A stretch of DNA of 21,029 bases from a virus: the UHGV virus genome UHGV-1794847. One strand, given 5' to 3'. Under the pieces are notes generated by a model. The model was given only the letters and a program-made list of their open reading frames with translations. It did no database searches and was not told the origin of the DNA. Both the position numbers and the translations under genes were made by a program. This document shows, one piece after another, positions 502-17,878 of this stretch (positions are counted from its first letter, which is position 1; each line of letters opens with the position of its first letter).

Positions 502-1992
502 TTATGCCTTTTTAGATTTGCGCTTTGCAGCAACTACGACTTCTGCTACGATAGCTTCTACAGTAGCTTCAGTTACAACAGACTTGTCTGCAACTTTTAC
601 AAGAGCTGCATGCAACTTGTAGTTGCCGACTTTGCTGAAAGTGCACTTGAATTCTGTTGTTGCGTTGTATTCTGCAGGTACTGCAAAGCCGCTGTCAGGA
701 CCCCATGCACCACTGTCTTCGAATGTCCAAGGCTGACCCTGTGAATCTGTTGCAGTGAATGTCACATGACCATCTTCAGGTGCTTCTACAATTTCATATT
801 GCAGCTGAACGCCATCAACACCTGCCTTACCAACTACTTCAGTTGCAAGCGTTGCATTGATTGCTACTTCTGTTGCAGGCTGAATGCTTGCAGGGACATC
901 TACAGAAATCTTGTATTCTGATACTTCAGGCTGAACTGGCTCAGCAACAACTACTGTAGACTCTGCTTCAACAACTACACTGTCATCAGCAACCTTGGCA
1001 AGAACTGCATGCAATTTGTATGTGCCAGCCTTGCTAAAGATTACAGTGAACTTTGTAGTTGCATTGTATTCTGCAGGAATGTCAAAGCCTGTTGCAGGCC
1101 CCCAAGTGCCATTGTCGACAAATGTATATTCCTTGCCAGCAGCGTCAGTAGCCTTGAATGTCACATGGCCATCTTCAGGTGCTTCGTCTACACCATAGCG
1201 GAACTGAACTTTGTCAACACCGACATCACCAACAGTCTTCGTTTTGAATGTTGCATCAAGCTCAACTTCAGTGTTTTCGATGATTGTTTCAGGCGCAGAC
1301 ATTTCAAACTCATACTCAGATACTGTTTGCACAGCTTGTTCAAGTTTGATGTTCTTTGTCTTGTTTGAAATCATAGTTTCACGACCAGCCTGGCTAACGT
1401 AGCCCTCTTTAGACACTTCCCAGACAATTTCTTCGCCTGACAAAACAGTCAACGAATTGCGAACTTCACCATTCATCTTGACAACTGCATCTGCAGGTTC
1501 TACATTGATTGTCAGTGTAGCTTTGCTGAGCTCAACAAGCTCCACTACTTGAATGACATCATGGTTTGTGAGCGTGATTGTGCCCTCCTGAGATTCATAG
1601 CCCTCTTTCGACACTTCCCACTTAATTGGAATGCCTGCGGGCACATTCTCAAGCATCTTTGTAGCCTCACCATTGATTTCTACATGAGCATCTTCAGGCA
1701 CTGGCTGAATTGTGATGCTGAACTTGTCTTTGCCAGGTTCAGGGTCTGGTCCGGGTCCTGGGTCATCACCAGTAATTGCAGGGATAATTGTCTTTTCGAT
1801 GACTTTTTGAGCTTCTGCAGTTGTGCCATAGAATTTGAGAGTTTTCTTGGCTTCTTCTACAGACATTTTCTCAAGATTGTCTGCAAGATATGTCAGACCA
1901 GTGACTGCAGCAATTTTCTGCCGCATTTCTGGGCTAATGACTACACCAGTAGATTTGACCACTGGAGCAGCTTGTTTTTGTTTCTTTGCCAT
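502..1992 (-). CDS. Repeat-containing surface/structural-like protein: Pro/Gly/Asp-rich linker, two PEGA-like repeats, two Ig-like ~105-aa repeats
   Basis: ATG at 1990..1992, TAA at 502..504. Two ~60-aa repeats with PEDAHVEINGE / PADAVVKMNGE and WEVSKEGY signatures resembling the PEGA domain; two C-terminal repeats sharing VEAPEDGHVTF..WGP..PAEYNATT..FSK.G.YKLHA. Linker GDDPGPGPDPEPG. Domain names are from memory of family signatures. Confidence 0.75.
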   Translation of the reverse strand: MAKKQKQAAPVVKSTGVVISPEMRQKIAAVTGLTYLADNLEKMSVEEAKKTLKFYGTTAEAQKVIEKTIIPAITGDDPGPGPDPEPGKDKFSITIQPVPEDAHVEINGEATKMLENVPAGIPIKWEVSKEGYESQEGTITLTNHDVIQVVELVELSKATLTINVEPADAVVKMNGEVRNSLTVLSGEEIVWEVSKEGYVSQAGRETMISNKTKNIKLEQAVQTVSEYEFEMSAPETIIENTEVELDATFKTKTVGDVGVDKVQFRYGVDEAPEDGHVTFKATDAAGKEYTFVDNGTWGPATGFDIPAEYNATTKFTVIFSKAGTYKLHAVLAKVADDSVVVEAESTVVVAEPVQPEVSEYKISVDVPASIQPATEVAINATLATEVVGKAGVDGVQLQYEIVEAPEDGHVTFTATDSQGQPWTFEDSGAWGPDSGFAVPAEYNATTEFKCTFSKVGNYKLHAALVKVADKSVVTEATVEAIVAEVVVAAKRKSKKA

Positions 1993-2078
1993 AAGATATT
2001 GTGAATTTGGTTGTTATTCTTAACAAAATATGTACATACAGATGCAACAGATGATATGTCAGATGCACAAAACTGCAT

Positions 2079-2135: not shown

Positions 2136-3428
2136 CTACAACAATGACGGCACTCGTTGAGTTTCAAGTGGGTCACTGACATTGATGCCTGTGTATGCAA
2201 CAAGTCGTTGTATTGGGCCAAGCACGAGTTTTTCGAACATGAGTCGCTTATTCATTGGTGGCACATCTGGCATGTACTTAGGCGTTGGCATTTCACCTGG
2301 CGCAAAGCCAAATGCATCGCAATATTGACGAGAACCAATTGGGATATTTGACAAATCTGACTTTGCTCTATCGACGAAATAGTAGAACACTCTACCGCCT
2401 TCAATCAATGTATATCGTGTTTCCAATCCATGAGCTTTTACAAGTGCGTTATGGTATGCACAAGCCCTGTACTGAGGCAGTACGCCTTTTGCTAACTGCC
2501 ATTCGCCATCATAGCTTAGCACATAGTCATGATACTTGTTTGCATTGACATATGCACAAAGTTTCTCCAAGTCTTGCTCGGCTTCAAAGCGTTTCCATAA
2601 TTTCTGTATGAGCTTTGGATATGTCGCAGAAGTCAATTCACCTCTGAACATTTTCTTGAATGCATAATCAAGCATTTGCCTAACAAGCATTGATGAGCCT
2701 GTTTGAATAAGTTCGATGCCTTTGCCTTGAATGTGCTCAGTAGGGTCTTCGAATACTCGACCATCTACATATATTTGAGCCTTTAAGTACTTTTTCTTTT
2801 GGGCAAATAATGCAGTGTCAGAAATCGTTTCGAGGTCAAATAGCAAAATTGAATTGCCATGACGTTTTGCGAGGTCTGCTGCATATGCCCCATTGAATAA
2901 TTCTTCCATACGATATTTGAATATCGCAAGAATCAAGTCATACCAATTTTTGCCTATGTAGCCAATTGATTTGACAGTTGGCTCAAAGTGAATGTACAAA
3001 GAGTCTGTGTCAATATACAACACTTTGTCTTCATAGGGTTCTTGCTTTGGCGACACAGACAAATCAAAATTGCCCTTCAATTGTGGGTCATTACGCAGCT
3101 TTTCATGCAATTCATAATCACACCACCACTTATTGTTAAGATAGTCATTTGCTACTCGTTCACCAAAGTGAATGAAGTTGCGGCCTTCAGCAGTAATTGA
3201 TTCTGCAACAGCCATATTAAAGAAGTGATAGAAACGATTGCTTGTAGCGCCATATATTGAGTTTCGACAACATTTTGCTGAGACTTGTAGTCCTGCATGC
3301 TTTAGTGATTCTTGCATTGCAAAATCTCTCAATTCAAATAGACGTTCAGTAGACAACTGACTCAAATCACCAGTCAAATCTACTCCATCTATTTCAATTT
3401 TTGACATATCTATCTGAGCTTCTGCCAT
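2136..3428 (-). CDS. Family-B DNA polymerase, C-terminal part (motif B, motif C, thumb)
   Basis: Motif B KCCRNSIYG verified at 3249..3275 (K-x3-NS-x-YG) and motif C YIDTDS at 3000..3017 (YGDTDS-type). Stop TAG at 2136..2138. Start set to ATG at 3426..3428; the track's 3518 start is a TTG codon, and an alternative ATG exists at 3459..3461. Confidence 0.85.
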   Translation of the reverse strand: MAEAQIDMSKIEIDGVDLTGDLSQLSTERLFELRDFAMQESLKHAGLQVSAKCCRNSIYGATSNRFYHFFNMAVAESITAEGRNFIHFGERVANDYLNNKWWCDYELHEKLRNDPQLKGNFDLSVSPKQEPYEDKVLYIDTDSLYIHFEPTVKSIGYIGKNWYDLILAIFKYRMEELFNGAYAADLAKRHGNSILLFDLETISDTALFAQKKKYLKAQIYVDGRVFEDPTEHIQGKGIELIQTGSSMLVRQMLDYAFKKMFRGELTSATYPKLIQKLWKRFEAEQDLEKLCAYVNANKYHDYVLSYDGEWQLAKGVLPQYRACAYHNALVKAHGLETRYTLIEGGRVFYYFVDRAKSDLSNIPIGSRQYCDAFGFAPGEMPTPKYMPDVPPMNKRLMFEKLVLGPIQRLVAYTGINVSDPLETQRVPSLL

Positions 3429-3448
3429 AAGTTGTTTATTTTTGATTT

Positions 3449-3459
3449 TATTGTACAAC
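3449..3459 (-). promoter_or_regulatory. Conserved GTTGTACAATA element (sense strand), 20 nt upstream of the polymerase C-part ATG
   Basis: Plus-strand tattgtacaac at 3449..3459; identical 11-mer also at 8225..8235 and 10317..10327, each upstream of a minus-strand start. Contains a TACAAT -10-like hexamer and the palindrome TTGTACAA. Confidence 0.35.
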
Positions 3460-3496
3460 ATGCAAAACGAGTTTGCACTGTTTTGATACAACGACA

Positions 3497-4459
3497 CTAA
3501 ACTTTTACATGACCACAATCAAACACAGGATAAAATTGCCGTTGTAGCATAGTATTTGTGTCAAAATTGCCATCAATAAGATGTTCGTGTGTGCGCCAAT
3601 TATGCCAATGTTTTTGAATTGTCTGCAAGTTATCTGATTTTTGTGGATTCAATGCAAAGTCTGTTGATAGCACAGGTTCATTGTTCAAATGCGCTTGTAT
3701 TGCTGCAATAACTGCTTCAACAGACATCCACTCAAATGCAGTCACACAAATAAAACCTGCACGCAATGCATCTTGAGTTTTGTAAAAGTGATATGTTGGA
3801 TGAGTTGCTGCGCATTTTGATGCATTTTTGACAAGTGCATCAAAGCTTTTTGCGCTGTTATGCGACACTGTTGGATTGATTTCTACTACGACATTGTCAT
3901 ATCGCAAATCATACAACTTTAAGCCTATTCTGTAGTCATATTCAAAATTTATGCCAAGACGTTCAAATAGCAATGCATGCCAACGTTCATTAAGTTTTGA
4001 CTGTATTTGACCAGATGCTGCTCTGCATTTTGCATGCATGCAAAAATACGGCACATCATATCGCTCTTCACATGTTTGACGCAACTTAGCAATGTTTGCA
4101 GGCCCAAGCTTGCCAAAATGCTTAAGCTTAGTTGCATTTGCTTTGTCAGTATTGCTTGGACCTGCTTTGCCAAAATGTTCAAGCTTTGTCGCATTCGCTT
4201 TGTCAGTATTGCCTGGTCCAAGCTTGCCAAAATGTTTAAGCTTAGTCTGCTTGCATTGCTCTGTTACATATGATAACTGCATATTGTGTTCTACACCATA
4301 TTTTCGCAACATTGCAATTCGCCTGATGTATTTTCTACGAATTTTGCTGTGCGACGTCTTTCTTGGTGCGTATCTAACATATGGTGTATTTGCAATCAAC
4401 TCATCTCGCTCGTTTTCAAGTTTAGCAATACGAGCATCAATCTCTTCTTTTGTCATCAT
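3497..4459 (-). CDS. Repeat-containing putative DNA-binding / homing-endonuclease-like protein, class unassigned
   Basis: ATG at 4457..4459. Three tandem 19-aa repeats (TKLKHFGKLGPGNTDKANA) encoded by a 57-bp DNA repeat; basic N-terminus. Sits between the two polymerase halves, where freestanding endonucleases typically reside. No GIY-YIG or HNH motif recognised; the motif LYDLRYDNVVVEINPTVSH is only loosely nuclease-like. Confidence 0.55.
   Translation of the reverse strand: MMTKEEIDARIAKLENERDELIANTPYVRYAPRKTSHSKIRRKYIRRIAMLRKYGVEHNMQLSYVTEQCKQTKLKHFGKLGPGNTDKANATKLEHFGKAGPSNTDKANATKLKHFGKLGPANIAKLRQTCEERYDVPYFCMHAKCRAASGQIQSKLNERWHALLFERLGINFEYDYRIGLKLYDLRYDNVVVEINPTVSHNSAKSFDALVKNASKCAATHPTYHFYKTQDALRAGFICVTAFEWMSVEAVIAAIQAHLNNEPVLSTDFALNPQKSDNLQTIQKHWHNWRTHEHLIDGNFDTNTMLQRQFYPVFDCGHVKV
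4101..4260 (-). repeat. 57-bp in-frame tandem repeat, about 2.8 copies, inside CDS 3497..4459
   Basis: Units starting near 4108, 4165 and 4222 (gcttgccaaaatgcttaagcttagttgcatttgctttgtcagtattgc and variants); period 57 = 19 codons. Confidence 0.8.
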
Positions 4460-6695: not shown

Positions 6696-8201
6696 TTACA
6701 ATTTGATTGCACCTCTACGAGCAAGCTCTTCTTCAATCAATCTAACATGATTGTTAGCATACCAAAATTGCAATTTTTTGTGATAATTGCGAATGTCGCC
6801 AAGCTGTTCTTGAGTTTCTTTATACATTGAAGGCTCTCTATTGTCATACAGACAATTATTGACAGACACAAAGTAATTTGGGTCTGCTTTGTAATGCTCG
6901 ATTTCATCAGGATTTGTCAAACGTCTAATAAAGTTGTCTGGTGAAATATTCGCCGAGCGCATACTTGACGGATACAACGAGTTTGCATCAACACAGACAA
7001 CCATACGAGCCCAATGGTTAAATGGCTGCTTAACAAAGCCGCCCTCAAATGAATGTACAACATTCTCCGGACCGCCTTGAGCGCATACAACTTTACCGCC
7101 ATATTTGTTGTACAAATATGTCATCATGACGCCCTCAGATTGCTTAACTGGTCCTTGACAGTGATTCATGTCAATATTTGTCATATTTGACAATGACATT
7201 ACATTTGATATCAAGTCAGTTTTTGCAGCAATCATCGCATTGACCATCGTATCGACAGCATTATATGCAATGAACGTGCATGGATGATACAAATACAGCT
7301 CTTTAAGTGTGCAATCATAGGGCAGCTTACCTACGCCAAACATACGATGTGCAATATAGTCAAGTCGCAATGACTCTTTTTGCCACACTGAATAGTCGTA
7401 TGTGTCCATGAGTTGCATGTAGTCATCAATGTACTTGTGATATGGCATGCCATTGCCCCAGACAGTTCTGCCAACTGGAGATGCCAATGCTAAATCAATA
7501 TTGTGCATTGCGCATCGATTTTTGATATAGATGCTATCGAAGCCATTGATGTTCCAACCTGTCAATGCAGGAATGTTTTTGAAGAGCTTAGTCACCCAAA
7601 AATGCAACAATTCATGCTCATTTGCATGTTGAAAGATTTTGACAGTCGGACGCTCTTTCAAATATGCAGCAAAGCAATGCTGACCCATGTACTCTTGAAT
7701 GATGTTATTGACAAACTCAAATGCATCGTCCAGTGTTGGGTTTTGTTTGCCACAGCTTTTGCGCAAATCATCGTCATTCAACAAGTCAACAGTTGTCTGA
7801 ATGACACAATTACATTGCTCATCACATGTACTTATTGCATTAATGGGCATTTCAGCTTTGTCAGGCTTTGGAAAGCCATTGCCAATTTCAGTCTCAATAT
7901 CGTAAAAGTACAACTTTGGTCTACGATAAGCAAACAATTCAGCTTTGTCAGCTTCAGGCAATTCAAATAAGAATTGCAGTAAGTCAAATTGATTGAATCG
8001 CTTTGCTGTAACTCGAGTTACTGGCAATTTGCGCCAATCTTGAATATCTGCATATTGCGGCTCTACATGGTCTGATATTTGCCATACTGGAAATTGATAT
8101 GGCTGTTCACAGACAGGATATGTTTTAATATCAATGCCACCTTGCTCATTAACGTATGAAACTTCAATGCCATGTGACAAATATGCTACATCGACAATCA
8201 T
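6696..8201 (-). CDS. Family-B DNA polymerase, N-terminal part (3'-5' exonuclease domain plus motif A)
   Basis: Exo I FYDIETE (about 7893..7901), Exo II-like WNINGFD, Exo III-like YNAVD, and motif A DANSLYPS verified at 6966..6989. Ends with TAA at 6696..6698 about 100 aa after motif A, before any motif B. Start set to ATG 8199..8201; the track's 8237 start is TTG. Confidence 0.9.
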   Translation of the reverse strand: MIVDVAYLSHGIEVSYVNEQGGIDIKTYPVCEQPYQFPVWQISDHVEPQYADIQDWRKLPVTRVTAKRFNQFDLLQFLFELPEADKAELFAYRRPKLYFYDIETEIGNGFPKPDKAEMPINAISTCDEQCNCVIQTTVDLLNDDDLRKSCGKQNPTLDDAFEFVNNIIQEYMGQHCFAAYLKERPTVKIFQHANEHELLHFWVTKLFKNIPALTGWNINGFDSIYIKNRCAMHNIDLALASPVGRTVWGNGMPYHKYIDDYMQLMDTYDYSVWQKESLRLDYIAHRMFGVGKLPYDCTLKELYLYHPCTFIAYNAVDTMVNAMIAAKTDLISNVMSLSNMTNIDMNHCQGPVKQSEGVMMTYLYNKYGGKVVCAQGGPENVVHSFEGGFVKQPFNHWARMVVCVDANSLYPSSMRSANISPDNFIRRLTNPDEIEHYKADPNYFVSVNNCLYDNREPSMYKETQEQLGDIRNYHKKLQFWYANNHVRLIEEELARRGAIKL

Positions 8202-8212
8202 ATTATTATCTT

Positions 8213-8623
8213 TTAGAATAGAGATATTGTACAACAATTTGATTCAGGTTGCCATTCTACAATATGCGCATCAAAGTGTTTGTTAAGCCAATGTGCAAGT
8301 ATGTGTCTATGACAAAATGCAGATGGTCTGCACCAGCATAACAGTACAATGTCTCGTTCACCAGCAAGAAGCTTTATGCGATGCAGCATCAAACTTATCT
8401 GTGACAATGCAGCGTCAAGTTTTGCAGTGTATTGCTCTGCATATTGTGCATTGTCAAGCAAGCCTACTTTATGCAAACGAACAAGTGACATGTAATCAGG
8501 CATGACGTCAGTCCATGTAAAATCTGCTATGAAGCCCTTAGGTTTTGTTGCAGATACTTGAACAAGAAATGCGTTATCAGGCAGATGCCTGCATGCATAA
8601 TATGAAGTCAAGATTCTTGTCAT
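8213..8623 (-). CDS. DUF488-like protein
   Basis: ATG at 8621..8623, overlapping the upstream stop as ATGA. C-terminal RDIVLLCWCRPSAFCHRHILAHWL resembles the conserved LLC..E....CHR.l.a..L block of DUF488 (YeaO-like) proteins, recalled from memory. Confidence 0.5.
   Translation of the reverse strand: MTRILTSYYACRHLPDNAFLVQVSATKPKGFIADFTWTDVMPDYMSLVRLHKVGLLDNAQYAEQYTAKLDAALSQISLMLHRIKLLAGERDIVLLCWCRPSAFCHRHILAHWLNKHFDAHIVEWQPESNCCTISLF
8225..8235 (-). promoter_or_regulatory. Conserved GTTGTACAATA element, 23 nt upstream of the polymerase N-part ATG
   Basis: Plus tattgtacaac at 8225..8235; same 11-mer as at 3449..3459 and 10317..10327. Confidence 0.35.
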
Positions 8624-16085: not shown

Positions 16086-16979
16086 CTATGTCAATGCAAT
16101 GAAGACATCACCAGACTGTTCAGCTTCAAGCTCTTTTTCGACTTGTTGTTGCATTGTTTGACCTTTTGATGCAAGTCTATCAAAGTTAATGCGAACATTG
16201 CCAGGCAACTTGAAGTCATATGTGCCAATGATATCTGCAAGTTCTTGCATGCATTGACCTGTGCAGTATCTCAAGAAACGTCTGTCTTCATACAATGACT
16301 GCAGTGGCACTCTTACCCAACACATCAACACCAAATCAGACCCTTCATTATCACCAAGAATGTTCAGCTTATGACTAAATCTGTTGAAGTTATATGTGAT
16401 TGTTCGTTGTAGAATGCTTTCATATGTGCCAATTTCATACATTGTCACCCACAAGTCATCTGCAATTGATGCATTTTGAGAACCTGCAGGTCCAGCGTAG
16501 TTAAATGACACACCATTTGCCTCACTGTAGAAATTGATTGAATTGCTAAGCAGTCGTTCAAGATAGAAATTTGCACGCCGCATTGACAGTTTATGCTGCG
16601 ATTCAAGTAGCTGAACATCTGATACAGCCCAGATTTGTGGCGGCAATTTGACAATTTTGTTTGCGCCATCAGTCATGTCAATATCGCGAACAACAAACCA
16701 GCGCTCTTCAAGAGCAGACTCAGAATGTTCAAAAAACCATTCTGCACAAGTCTCAATGATTTGTGGCATACGAGTCTTCGGAATTGCAAATGGCAATGCA
16801 CAGCCTCGTGTGACTTCTTGTACAAGTCGCTCAATAAATCGCAAGTCTACGCTGTAGTCATATCGAGAATTGATATTTTCGACTTCAGGCTTATTGCACT
16901 CATTTGTTGTTGCGCCTTCGACTTTCCAAGAAGTTGCGCCGTCATTGATTGGTGGTGCTGGTTTACGTTGAACTTTCAT
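16086..16979 (-). CDS. Hypothetical protein (297 aa)
   Basis: ATG at 16977..16979 (MKVQRKPAPP); stop at 16086 followed by a terminator. Confidence 0.75.
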   Translation of the reverse strand: MKVQRKPAPPINDGATSWKVEGATTNECNKPEVENINSRYDYSVDLRFIERLVQEVTRGCALPFAIPKTRMPQIIETCAEWFFEHSESALEERWFVVRDIDMTDGANKIVKLPPQIWAVSDVQLLESQHKLSMRRANFYLERLLSNSINFYSEANGVSFNYAGPAGSQNASIADDLWVTMYEIGTYESILQRTITYNFNRFSHKLNILGDNEGSDLVLMCWVRVPLQSLYEDRRFLRYCTGQCMQELADIIGTYDFKLPGNVRINFDRLASKGQTMQQQVEKELEAEQSGDVFIALT

Positions 16980-17003
16980 GCTTGATAACGTTGAACTTTC
17001 ATG
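16965..17003 (-). repeat. 16-bp direct repeat acgttgaactttcatg duplicating the start region of gene 16086..16979
   Basis: Copies at 16965..16980 and 16988..17003; the upstream copy creates a second ATG (17000..17002) opening an 8-codon ORF MKVQRYQA whose TGA (16976..16978) overlaps the main ATG. Confidence 0.7.
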
Positions 17004-17188
17004 TGTCTTGTATATGGTCTACGGTGTGTGAAACACTCTACGGTATGATGTTGAAATTGACTGCAAGCAACAATGATGTGACATCTTCGCCCAATAGAAA
17101 TGAACCTGTAGCAAAACCAACGGCATCAAGTTGATTTGTAAACGTGCTCAGCGGCAATGTCAGTATGATGTAGCCTAACTTAACAGAG

Positions 17189-17198
17189 CCCCCCCCCC
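17189..17198. repeat. Homopolymeric C10 tract (G10 on minus strand) in the 287-bp intergenic region
   Basis: cccccccccc at 17189..17198 within otherwise AT-rich non-coding sequence 16980..17266. Confidence 0.8.
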
Positions 17199-17266
17199 GT
17201 GTTTTGCGAGCGATAGTGGTCTTGAGTTACATGTGACATATATGAAATGTTTGTTTGAATATGTAT

Positions 17267-17878
17267 TTATGGTGTAACAATCGGTCCGCCACCAGGCAAA
17301 CTTGAACATGTTTGCATGTATGTATACAACAAATTTCCTGCGTTTTGCATAATGTTTGCGAACATCAATGCAATGCCGCGCAAATCAGCTTCGCCTTCAA
17401 ATGTGTTGATAAATGCTTGCTGAGCGCATGCAAACATTACTGGCACAGTAGATGCACTTGTCATTGCTATCACAGGTCCGCCAGGCGACAAGGGCAACAC
17501 CGGTGGCGATGCTGGCACAGTTAAGTTTGTTGGAATCCATGCTGCAACTGCTGCAGCATAAGGCTTAAAGCCATTGCCAAACTTTATTGCAATGTTCTTT
17601 GGGTCTGATTCACCTTGAAAAGTTTCTATAAGTGCTTGTCTACCTGCTTCAAATAGAGATTGCTCAAGTGTAGCAGTTGGACCTGCAGTTATTGGACCGC
17701 CGACAGGCAAACCTGTGCAAGTTGCAATGTAGCTTGCTACACCCGTAGCAAACAATTGACTGAATTTGTTGGCAAACTTTGTCGCAATTTGCGGTCTATC
17801 AAGCTCACCTTGAAAAGTTGCAGTGTATGCTTGATATGCAATGGGCTGCACAGCAGCTTGCAATGTAGCGCCTGGCAT
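17267..17878 (-). CDS. Triple-repeat protein (three ~65-aa repeats)
   Basis: ATG at 17876..17878. Repeats share TF(Q/E)GE.D....IA.KF.N ... LP.GGPI; the DNA shows three degenerate ~200-bp tandem repeats. Confidence 0.7.
   Translation of the reverse strand: MPGATLQAAVQPIAYQAYTATFQGELDRPQIATKFANKFSQLFATGVASYIATCTGLPVGGPITAGPTATLEQSLFEAGRQALIETFQGESDPKNIAIKFGNGFKPYAAAVAAWIPTNLTVPASPPVLPLSPGGPVIAMTSASTVPVMFACAQQAFINTFEGEADLRGIALMFANIMQNAGNLLYTYMQTCSSLPGGGPIVTP

What the first reader, a model, noticed from the sequence alone, without database searches (positions are those of the whole stretch)
16965..17003. Duplicated start-codon region creating an 8-codon upstream ORF that overlaps the real start
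The 16 bp around the ATG of gene 16086..16979 are directly repeated 23 bp upstream. The upstream copy provides ATG-AAA-GTT-CAA-CGT (the same first five codons, MKVQR), continuing YQA then TGA, and that stop overlaps the genuine ATG as ATGA. This arrangement permits termination-reinitiation coupling and may also be the scar of a recombination or slippage event.
Basis: seen in the sequence. Interest (0 to 1): 0.45.

Follow-up and report, generated by a model that had tools for sequence, protein, structure and literature searches.

The report
Duplicated start of phage neck gene
The first 16 bases of a phage neck-protein gene are repeated just upstream, making a tiny 8-codon reading frame that stops exactly on the real start codon. 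It is most likely a tolerated recombination scar at the edge of a gene-swapping hotspot, not a new kind of control element.

Summary
On the minus strand, CATGAAAGTTCAACGT occurs at 17003..16988 and at 16980..16965, 23 nt apart. The upstream ATG (17002) opens MKVQRYQA-TGA, and that TGA overlaps the start of the T4 gp13-like neck gene (16979) as ATGA.

The repeat is real. It occurs in at least 7 independent assemblies, which give 5 distinct sequences. A local repeat this long arose in 1 of 300 shuffles.

It is specific to one lineage. Sixteen related loci lack it. It sits at the right edge of a hypervariable slot between a conserved 203-aa gene and the neck gene. That slot holds 0-3 small cassette genes that share an N-terminal tag (MSHVTQDHYRSQNA). 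The repeat always accompanies one cassette type and moves with it by homologous recombination, as the L038 versus L024 comparison shows.

The ATGA overlap follows automatically from a 23-nt offset (2 mod 3) and a gene that begins ATGA.

Best reading: a recombination or slippage scar, made harmless by its own stop-start overlap. Termination-reinitiation is plausible but untested.

One point argues for some constraint: the 76-nt stretch containing the repeat is much less variable than the coding sequence on either side (1/76 versus 23/169 sites, p = 0.002).

Interest is modest. The nearby variable poly-G tract in the cassette genes is arguably more interesting.

The parts
16988..17003 (-). Upstream copy of the 16-mer CATGAAAGTTCAACGT. 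It holds the upstream ATG at 17002..17000.
16965..16980 (-). Downstream copy of the 16-mer. It holds the genuine neck-gene ATG at 16979..16977 and codons 1-5.
   Evidence: All homologues begin MKV(Q/N)RKP at this ATG.
16976..17002 (-). 8-codon uORF (MKVQRYQA) plus its TGA stop. The stop overlaps the neck ATG as ATGA.
   Evidence: read directly
16981..16987 (-). 7-nt TATCAAG between the two copies. Together with the following C it resembles the native neck leader of junction type L023 (ATCATAGC-ATG), allowing one indel. This is a weak similarity.
16086..16979 (-). Neck protein gene, T4 gp13-like, 297 aa.
   Evidence: PF26809 Phage_T4_gp13. PHROG 211 head-tail adaptor. tblastn hits to proteins annotated 'neck protein' in Tenacibaculum, Chryseobacterium and Flavobacterium phages.
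16965..17040 (-). 76-nt conserved island, running from the cassette-gene stop (TAG 17040..17038) through the spacer and both repeat copies to neck codon 5. There is one variable site among 5 distinct genomes: window 17012, which is position -10 of the upstream ATG.
   Evidence: 1/76 variable sites versus 23/169 in the flanking coding sequence, Fisher p = 0.0019.
17018..17044 (-). Further mini-repeats in the spacer: ACCGTAGA at 17044..17037 (includes the cassette stop codon) and at 17025..17018, plus reiterated AGAC. This gives the spacer a patchwork look consistent with scar tissue.
17038..17240 (-). Remnant chimeric cassette gene. It consists of the conserved tag MSHVTQDHYRSQN (ATG 17240), a poly-G tract, the N-terminal part of an L035a-type cassette, and the last ~25 codons of an L035b-type cassette. 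It is frameshifted in this window.
17189..17198 (-). G10 homopolymer directly after the conserved tag. L022, which is 99.97% identical, has G11. An in-frame reading would need G9 or G12.
17115..17121 (-). GTTGGTT microhomology at the junction of a ~772-nt deletion relative to L002.
17267..17878 (-). Conserved 203-aa gene that forms the left border of the variable slot.

Best explanation
The duplicated start is a lineage-specific scar of illegitimate recombination: either end-joining of two neck-gene 5' regions or replication slippage. It lies at the 3' border of a hypervariable cassette slot immediately upstream of the T4 gp13-like neck gene.

Shown:
- The slot between the 203-aa gene and the neck gene holds 0-3 small cassette genes in relatives.
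- The repeat occurs only with one terminal cassette type (L035b-like) and with one neck 5' allele (MKVQRKP[A/E]PPIN).
- The block made of the cassette 3' end, a 58-nt spacer containing the repeat, and ~100 nt of the neck gene has been moved by homologous recombination into an otherwise cassette-less backbone (L038 versus L024).

Follows from the sequence: the copies are 23 nt apart (2 mod 3) and the gene begins ATGA. The upstream AUG is therefore forced into the frame that reads the TGA embedded in ATGA, so the uORF ends after 8 codons exactly on the real start.

Inferred: the host translates without Shine-Dalgarno sequences, and no gene in the window has one. Ribosomes therefore probably load at both AUGs, which share identical downstream context in an unstructured A-rich leader. 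Those that start at the upstream AUG terminate on the ATGA and can reinitiate. The scar therefore costs little, and it may help load the neck cistron now that the cassette stop lies 58 nt away. The low variability of the 76-nt island suggests the leader as a whole is under constraint. It does not show that the uORF itself is selected.
For: - Repeat confirmed and non-random.
- Homology between the window and L001 breaks exactly at the neck ATG and at the end of the 203-aa gene.
- The slot content differs among 10 contigs that encode the identical neck protein P0072.
- Sixteen related loci lack the repeat.
- The repeat is identical in L002/L035, L036, L037, L038 and L022, even though the adjoining cassette protein has diverged to 82% and 73% identity.
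- L038 is 96-100% identical to the cassette-less L024 in both flanks. It carries the cassette, spacer, repeat and the first ~100 nt of the neck gene as an insert that is 88-100% identical to L002.
- Other microhomology or deletion events occur in the same slot: the GTTGGTT junction in the window, and the chimeric remnant in L030.
- No gene in the window has an SD sequence.
- No stable RNA structure around the two AUGs (z = +0.82).
- No promoter-like or terminator-like site between the cassette and the neck gene.
- ATGA pairs are strictly coupled in 13 of 14 tested cases, and 15 nt of upstream ORF is sufficient (PMC6728339; PMC10666635).
- Tight or overlapping gene junctions are the norm in this window, for example the ATGA at 8620..8623.
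Against: - All 3 mismatches between the 23-nt units fall in the last 7 nt and none in the first 16. The chance of this, given 3 changes, is about 0.02. A simple 23-nt slippage followed by neutral drift therefore fits poorly. Either the event was a 16-nt end-joining duplication or the 16-mer is constrained.
- The 76-nt noncoding island is far less variable than the adjoining coding sequence, where 10 of 12 changes are at third codon positions. A purely neutral scar does not predict this.
- No pre-duplication form of this junction type was found, so the event itself cannot be reconstructed.
- AUG triplets near start codons are selected against in Bacteroidia (PMC6847099). A retained upstream AUG at -23 is therefore somewhat unexpected if it were harmful.
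Confidence: 0.65

Rival explanations
1. Selected translational relay. The duplicated initiation region is maintained because it raises or stabilises ribosome loading on the neck cistron, acting as a natural leader cistron whose stop overlaps the start. It would compensate for the loss of direct coupling to the upstream cassette gene in a host that ignores SD sequences. The origin could still be a scar; the rival claim is that it is now functional.
For: - The 76-nt island has 1/76 variable sites versus 23/169 in the flanks (p = 0.0019). For L002 versus L038 the figures are 0/76 versus 21/169 (p = 0.00035).
- The repeat is retained unchanged while the cassette protein diverged to 73% identity.
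- In other junction types the cassette stop lies 6-8 nt from the neck ATG or overlaps it (ATGA in L001). In this type it lies 58 nt away. About 20 nt of spacing abolishes coupling in tested systems (PMC10666635).
- Independent deletions in the slot (window, L030) both spare the ~100-150 nt upstream of the neck gene.
Against: - The conservation covers the whole spacer, not specifically the uORF.
- It rests mainly on one divergent genome (L038). Recent recombination of the block could also produce it.
- There is no structure for a leader cistron to melt.
- Most relatives manage without the duplication.
- The ATGA overlap arises automatically, with about a 1 in 3 chance for any start-containing duplication.
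Confidence: 0.3
2. Silent leader. The upstream AUG is not used, or is used negligibly, and the repeat is simply untranslated 5' leader sequence with no effect on neck expression.
For: - The genuine AUG has A at -3, -12 and -13. The upstream AUG has C at -3 and A only at -6 and -13. These positions are determinants per PMC6847099.
- Gene callers in all source assemblies chose the downstream ATG.
Against: - Both AUGs share the same 13 nt downstream and both lie in unstructured A-rich sequence.
- Without SD-based selection there is no obvious reason for ribosomes to skip the first AUG.
- A small PWM built from this window's own starts did not favour the downstream AUG, although that test is overfitted.
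Confidence: 0.2
3. Duplicated binding site for a protein or RNA regulator that recognises the neck gene's initiation region, such as a RegA-like translational repressor. Two tandem operators would give cooperative control.
For: Two exact copies and an unusually conserved island.
Against: - The 16-mer and the island's sub-motifs do not recur at other gene starts in the window beyond chance.
- No Rfam match.
- No candidate regulator identified.
Confidence: 0.05
4. Assembly or sequencing artefact.
For: None. This was considered only because short tandem repeats can be mis-assembled.
Against: The identical structure occurs in at least 7 assemblies from different projects and assemblers: IMG/VR, ENA metaSPAdes and MEGAHIT contigs, and Logan.
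Confidence: 0.01

Closest known systems
Overlapping stop-start (ATGA) gene pairs coupled by termination-reinitiation (Huber et al. 2019, PMC6728339; Huber et al. 2023, PMC10666635)
   Same: Both have co-directional reading frames with a 4-nt ATGA overlap. A short upstream coding stretch (15 nt or more) suffices for coupling in tested pairs. The same tight-junction style occurs elsewhere in this window.
   Different: - The upstream frame here is only 8 codons.
- It is a copy of the downstream gene's own start rather than a real gene.
- No SD precedes the downstream AUG.
- Coupling is untested in any SD-blind (Bacteroidia-type) system for this locus.
Synthetic two-cistron / bicistronic-design expression cassettes (Schoner et al. 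1980s; Mutalik et al. 2013; cited from memory, not checked here)
   Same: A short leader cistron whose stop overlaps the start codon of the gene of interest, so that ribosomes translating the leader deliver themselves to the second start.
   Different: The synthetic designs embed an SD for the second cistron inside the leader and exist to melt structure. Here there is no SD and no predicted structure. There is also no evidence of design: the overlap is a geometric by-product.
Mosaic junctions and modular shuffling in hyperplastic regions of T4-type phages (Arbiol et al. 2010, PMC2839356; PMC4122927)
   Same: Closely related large phages differ by insertion, deletion or replacement of small ORFan genes at defined slots. 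Exchange occurs through conserved flanking sequences.
   Different: - No promoter-stem-loop (PeSL) cassette is involved.
- The conserved arms here are the 5' 45 nt of each cassette gene (the N-terminal tag) and the cassette 3' end, spacer and neck 5' end.
- The slot lies inside the structural module.
T4 fibritin (wac) locus, with a conserved N-terminal neck-attachment domain and a swappable C-terminal domain (Letarov & Krisch 2013, PMC3797505). The T4 gene order 12-wac-13 is from my own knowledge.
   Same: The variable genes sit directly upstream of the gp13-like neck gene. They have a conserved N-terminus and unrelated C-terminal parts.
   Different: - The cassette proteins are small (85-190 aa) and all-beta in the one model made, not coiled-coil fibres.
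- They have no sequence-family match.
- Attachment to the neck is only inferred from gene position.

Membership tests
ATGA stop-start overlap pair (termination-reinitiation coupling) | Two co-directional ORFs whose stop and start overlap by 4 nt (ATGA) | tested here: met
   TGA 16978..16976 overlaps ATG 16979..16977.
ATGA stop-start overlap pair (termination-reinitiation coupling) | The upstream ORF is actually translated | not testable with these tools
   Context only. The leader is unstructured and A-rich, with A at -6 and -13 but C at -3.
ATGA stop-start overlap pair (termination-reinitiation coupling) | Translation of the downstream gene depends on translation of the upstream ORF | not testable with these tools
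   Needs a reporter or ribosome-profiling experiment.
ATGA stop-start overlap pair (termination-reinitiation coupling) | Both ORFs lie on one transcript | tested here: inconclusive
   No sigma-70-like promoter or intrinsic terminator in 16800..17400. No TAnnTTTG motif there either. The phage's own promoter type is unknown.
Tandem duplication / illegitimate-recombination scar | Adjacent head-to-tail copies, more alike than chance | tested here: met
   16/16 identical at period 23 (20/23 over the full unit). 1 of 300 shuffles reached 16 nt.
Tandem duplication / illegitimate-recombination scar | Absent from the orthologous site of related genomes | tested here: met
   Absent in L001, L020, L023, L024, L025-L034, L039 and L040.
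Tandem duplication / illegitimate-recombination scar | Located at a mosaic or recombination boundary | tested here: met
   Homology to L001 resumes exactly at the neck ATG. The slot content is variable. The block has been transferred between backbones.
Tandem duplication / illegitimate-recombination scar | A pre-duplication form of the same junction, or flanking microhomology that identifies the mechanism | tested here: inconclusive
   Only a trivial CA microhomology is present. No single-copy version of this junction type was found in IMG/VR or among the contigs retrieved.
Regulatory leader peptide / attenuator uORF | Alternative RNA structures, or a conserved stalling peptide, linked to the uORF | tested here: not met
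   Fold energy is no better than shuffles (z = +0.82). No Rfam hit. The peptide is just the neck N-terminus plus YQA.
Bicistronic-design-like leader cistron | An SD for the second cistron embedded in the leader cistron | tested here: not met
   No purine-rich SD lies upstream of either ATG or of any gene in the window.
Programmed ribosomal frameshift joining uORF and gene | A slippery heptamer plus a stimulator within the overlap | tested here: not met
   There is no X XXY YYZ motif in ATGAAAGTTCAACGTTATCAAGCATGA and no structure.
Poly-G phase-variable phage gene (side finding; cf. Campylobacter phages, Sorensen et al. 2021, cited in PMC10877375) | A homopolymer in the 5' coding region whose length differs between near-identical genomes, with an intact ORF downstream in the off state | tested here: met
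   Window G10 versus L022 G11 at 99.97% identity. Off states with an intact downstream ORF occur in L034 (G6 versus G8 in L028) and L030/L032 (G6, needs G7).
Poly-G phase-variable phage gene (side finding) | Tract-length heterogeneity within one phage population | not testable with these tools
   Only consensus contigs are available. Homopolymer sequencing error cannot be excluded for G10/G11.

The most novel reading that the evidence does not exclude
The conserved 76-nt island, with its duplicated initiation region, is a selected leader-cistron relay. It would restore ribosome delivery to the neck gene in an SD-blind (Bacteroidia-type) host after a cassette insertion uncoupled the gene from its upstream neighbour. 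It would also be the fixed right-hand arm of a wac-position array of swappable neck-appendage genes, which share a common N-terminal anchor tag and a slippage-prone poly-G on/off switch.
Probability: 0.2. Interest if true: 0.6.

Novelty: new member of a known kind. Interest (0 to 1): 0.3.

Why it matters
In itself the duplication matters little. It is a clear natural example of how a start-codon duplication can be rendered harmless: a 2-mod-3 offset plus a gene that begins ATGA yields a self-terminating uORF.

It is also a marker of a recombination boundary in a large phage that probably infects Bacteroidota.

If the upstream AUG proves to be used, it would be a convenient natural test case for termination-reinitiation in organisms whose ribosomes ignore Shine-Dalgarno sequences. 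In those organisms start-site choice and coupling rules are still poorly mapped.

The surrounding locus is the more promising lead for phage biology. It combines tagged cassette genes in the fibritin position, repeated cassette swaps and deletions, and variable poly-G tracts.

Tried and rejected
- Start-context scoring. A PWM built from 15 ATG starts in the window gave -3.4 for the upstream ATG and -7.6 for the genuine ATG, against a training mean of 8.1. The model is overfitted and uninformative, so I did not use it.
- RNA structure around the two AUGs: none beyond shuffles.
- Rfam scan of 16700..17400: no hit.
- Sigma-70 promoter and terminator scan, plus the Bacteroidetes -7 motif TAnnTTTG: nothing in the spacer.
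- Recurrence of the 16-mer or of 11-mers from the island elsewhere in the window: only chance-level near-matches.
- IMG/VR scans with the 16-mer, a 23-mer, a spacer 21-mer and the tag pattern: only contig 3300045988_152288. The other 16-mer hits are unrelated coding sequences.
- megablast of the region against deposited phage genomes: no match.
- Pfam and PHROG scans of the cassette proteins and the 203-aa protein: no family.
- Idea that the upstream copy derives from the common MKVNRKPQAE allele (shared CAAGCA). The ungapped match is worse than to the resident allele and the gapped match is short, so I did not pursue it.
- Programmed frameshift joining the uORF to the gene: no slippery site.
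A recount showed that G9 or G12 is needed. Corrected.

Full report
**1. What the window is**

All long ORFs lie on the minus strand. None is preceded by a Shine-Dalgarno sequence; the leaders are A-rich.

Gene 16086..16979 is a T4 gp13-like neck protein:
- PF26809 is recorded for it and for all its homologues.
- It matches PHROG 211, head-tail adaptor.
- tblastn gives 22-30% identity hits, annotated 'neck protein', in large phages of Tenacibaculum, Chryseobacterium and Flavobacterium, and in Sphingomonas phage PAU.

Upstream lie a baseplate-like protein (PHROG 37871), a 93-aa protein and a 203-aa protein. Downstream is a 1117-aa protein (PHROG 29329). Close relatives are ~175-kb IMG/VR contigs. 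A Bacteroidota host is an inference from the missing SD sequences and these affinities.

**2. The observation**

On the minus strand the sequence reads ...GACAAGACA[CATGAAAGTTCAACGT]TATCAAG[CATGAAAGTTCAACGT]AAACCAG....
- The two exact 16-mers are at 17003..16988 and 16980..16965. They are the only matches in the window even with 3 mismatches allowed.
- TRF calls a period-23 array.
- The upstream ATG (17002) reads MKVQRYQA, then TGA (16978..16976), which overlaps the neck ATG (16979..16977) as ATGA.
- A local exact repeat of 16 nt or more arose in 1 of 300 dinucleotide shuffles.

**3. Is it real, and how widespread?**

The same structure, base for base, is present in:
- L022, an ENA contig 99.97% identical to the window;
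- L002, from IMG/VR;
- L035, from a Logan run and 100% identical to L002; its neck protein P0070 is found on 5 contigs;
- L036 and L037, whose terminal cassette protein is only 82% identical to that of L002;
- L038, whose terminal cassette protein is only 73% identical.

It is absent from 16 related loci:
- L001, L020 and L025-L034 carry a different terminal cassette gene. That gene ends 6-8 nt before the neck ATG, or overlaps it as ATGA in L001.
- L023 has a third junction type.
- L024 (neck 80% identical) and L039/L040 (neck 50% identical) have no cassette at all. In these the 202/203-aa gene is followed after 21 nt by the neck gene.

**4. The context that explains it**

The interval between the 203-aa gene and the neck gene is a hypervariable slot.
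- Ten contigs encode the identical neck protein P0072, yet carry 0, 1, 2 or 3 small genes there, in different combinations.
- Window-to-L001 homology stops at the end of the 203-aa gene (17267) and resumes exactly at the neck ATG (16979).
- All cassette genes share a conserved 14-16-residue N-terminus, MS[HRST]VTQ[DE]HYR[SA]QNA. Downstream of it the sequences are unrelated.
- The window itself carries only a remnant. Relative to L002 it lacks ~772 nt, and the junction falls at a GTTGGTT microhomology (17121..17115). This fuses the 5' part of one cassette gene to the last ~25 codons of the terminal one.
- L030/L032 show an analogous, independent chimeric remnant in the other junction type.

The slot is therefore visibly prone to both homologous and microhomology-mediated rearrangement.

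**5. The repeat travels inside a recombining block**

L038 is 96-100% identical to the cassette-less L024 through the 203-aa gene and again from about +100 of the neck gene. In between it carries the cassette gene, the 58-nt spacer with the repeat, and the first ~100 nt of a window-type neck gene, at 88-100% identity to L002.

Consistent with this, the first ~36 nt of the neck gene in repeat-bearing genomes is a distinct allele (MKVQRKP[A/E]PPIN versus MKVNRKPQAEFN). The rest of the gene is ~95% identical.

The duplication is therefore not a fresh event in this window. It is an older feature of one junction type that spreads by homologous exchange.

**6. Origin**

The two 23-nt units differ at 3 positions, all in the last 7 nt. 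Given 3 changes, the chance of that placement is about 0.02. The 7-nt TATCAAG plus C resembles the native neck leader of L023 (ATCATAGC-ATG) if one indel is allowed.

I therefore slightly favour one model over clean 23-nt slippage followed by drift. In the favoured model, a fragment ending 15 nt into a neck gene was joined to a site ~8 nt upstream of another copy of the neck start. The data do not settle this.

The spacer contains other small reiterations: ACCGTAGA twice, the first copy including the cassette stop codon, and AGAC three times. These fit a patchwork origin.

**7. Why the ATGA overlap is not evidence of design**

Any duplication that includes the start codon and has an offset of 2 mod 3 puts the upstream AUG into the frame that reads the TGA inside ATG-A. 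Because the gene begins ATGAAA, the 8-codon uORF and its ATGA overlap follow automatically. Roughly one in three start-containing duplications would have this property. The others would either extend the protein or run out of frame into the gene.

**8. How it most likely works**

- Bacteroidia ribosomes do not use SD pairing.
- In these organisms initiation depends on an unstructured leader and on adenines at -3, -6, -12 and -13.
- AUG triplets near starts are depleted, presumably to avoid spurious initiation (PMC6847099).

Here both AUGs lie in unstructured sequence (z = +0.82) and share their downstream 13 nt. The genuine AUG has A at -3, -12 and -13. The upstream AUG has A at -6 and -13 and C at -3.

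I infer that both are used. Ribosomes from the upstream AUG terminate on the ATGA and can reinitiate. This matches tested ATGA pairs, where 13 of 14 are strictly coupled and 15 nt of upstream ORF suffices (PMC6728339; PMC10666635).

In this junction type the cassette stop is 58 nt from the neck ATG. That is too far for direct coupling by those data, so the uORF could partly substitute. This last step is speculation.

**9. A point in favour of constraint**

Among the five distinct repeat-bearing sequences, the 76 nt from the cassette stop to neck codon 5 have 1 variable column (window 17012). The adjoining coding sequence has 23 of 169 (Fisher p = 0.0019). For L002 versus L038 the counts are 0/76 versus 21/169 (p = 0.00035). 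In the neck flank, 10 of 12 variable sites are third codon positions.

So the leader as a whole evolves more slowly than nearby synonymous sites. This could mean selection on the neck initiation region, or a recent exchange of just this piece. It does not single out the uORF.

**10. Alternatives excluded or weakened**

- Assembly artefact: excluded by recurrence in at least 7 independent assemblies.
- Known RNA element: no Rfam hit.
- Attenuator: no alternative structures.
- Frameshift fusion: no slippery site.
- Repeated operator: the motif does not recur elsewhere.
- Promoter or terminator in the spacer: none detected.

**11. Verdict**

The 'coupling' reading is geometrically possible and biologically plausible but untested.

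It is a new example of known phenomena: a tandem-duplication scar at a phage mosaic junction, and an ATGA stop-start overlap. Interest is modest (0.3).

The neighbouring features are worth a separate look: tagged cassette genes in the fibritin position of a gp13-containing structural module, and a poly-G tract of variable length right after the tag, with several off-frame states that leave an intact downstream ORF.

Noticed in passing
window 17189..17198 (minus strand); L022, L026-L030, L032, L034, L002/L035 at the equivalent site: A poly-G tract lies directly after the conserved N-terminal tag of the first cassette gene, and its length varies.
- In frame: G6 (L002), G8 (L028), G9 (L026).
- Out of frame with an intact downstream ORF: window G10, L022 G11 (otherwise 99.97% identical to the window), L034 G6 (its homologue L028 has G8), L030/L032 G6 (needs G7).

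This looks like slipped-strand on/off switching, as described for Campylobacter phage poly-G tracts. Homopolymer sequencing error cannot be excluded for G10/G11.
   Followed up: partly
window 17038..17266; L001, L002/L035, L020, L023, L025-L034 between the 203-aa gene and the neck gene: A hypervariable array of 0-3 small ORFan genes. All begin with the same ~14-16 residues (MSHVTQDHYRSQNA, then often Gly) and continue with unrelated C-terminal parts.

These are possibly neck or collar appendages with a common anchor, or proteins carrying a targeting peptide.
   Followed up: partly
window 17115..17121; L030 about 2240..2320: Independent deletions in two junction types have fused the 5' end of the first cassette gene to the 3' end of the last one. 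The window does so at a GTTGGTT microhomology. Both leave chimeric remnants and spare the ~100-150 nt upstream of the neck gene.
   Followed up: partly
window 6696..8237 and 2136..3518 (minus strand): The DNA polymerase appears to be split into two genes about 3 kb apart. The 513-aa product matches the first ~500 positions of PHROG 262 and the 460-aa product matches positions 497-842. Between them lie dUTPase-like, MazG-like, 275-aa and 320-aa genes. The 320-aa gene has a faint homing-endonuclease hit.
   Followed up: no
window 4104..4247: A 57-nt (19-codon) tandem repeat, 2.5 copies, 83% matches, lies inside the 320-aa ORF 3497..4459. It contains the only other 16-nt exact local repeat in the window.
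   Followed up: no
L002 about 2340..2384; L020 40..95; L026/L027 about 1960..2010: Second-position cassette genes are preceded by an inverted repeat, for example caaatctgagtttttgaatgatttgcaagtcaatcattgcaaatcattcaaaaactcagat. This could be a terminator or a recombination hairpin between cassettes.
   Followed up: no
L025 2017..2538 versus neck gene at 2501: In one relative the terminal cassette gene has lost its usual stop (gtaaataaactct instead of gtaagataaactct). It reads 38 nt into the neck gene, which shows further plasticity at this junction.
   Followed up: no
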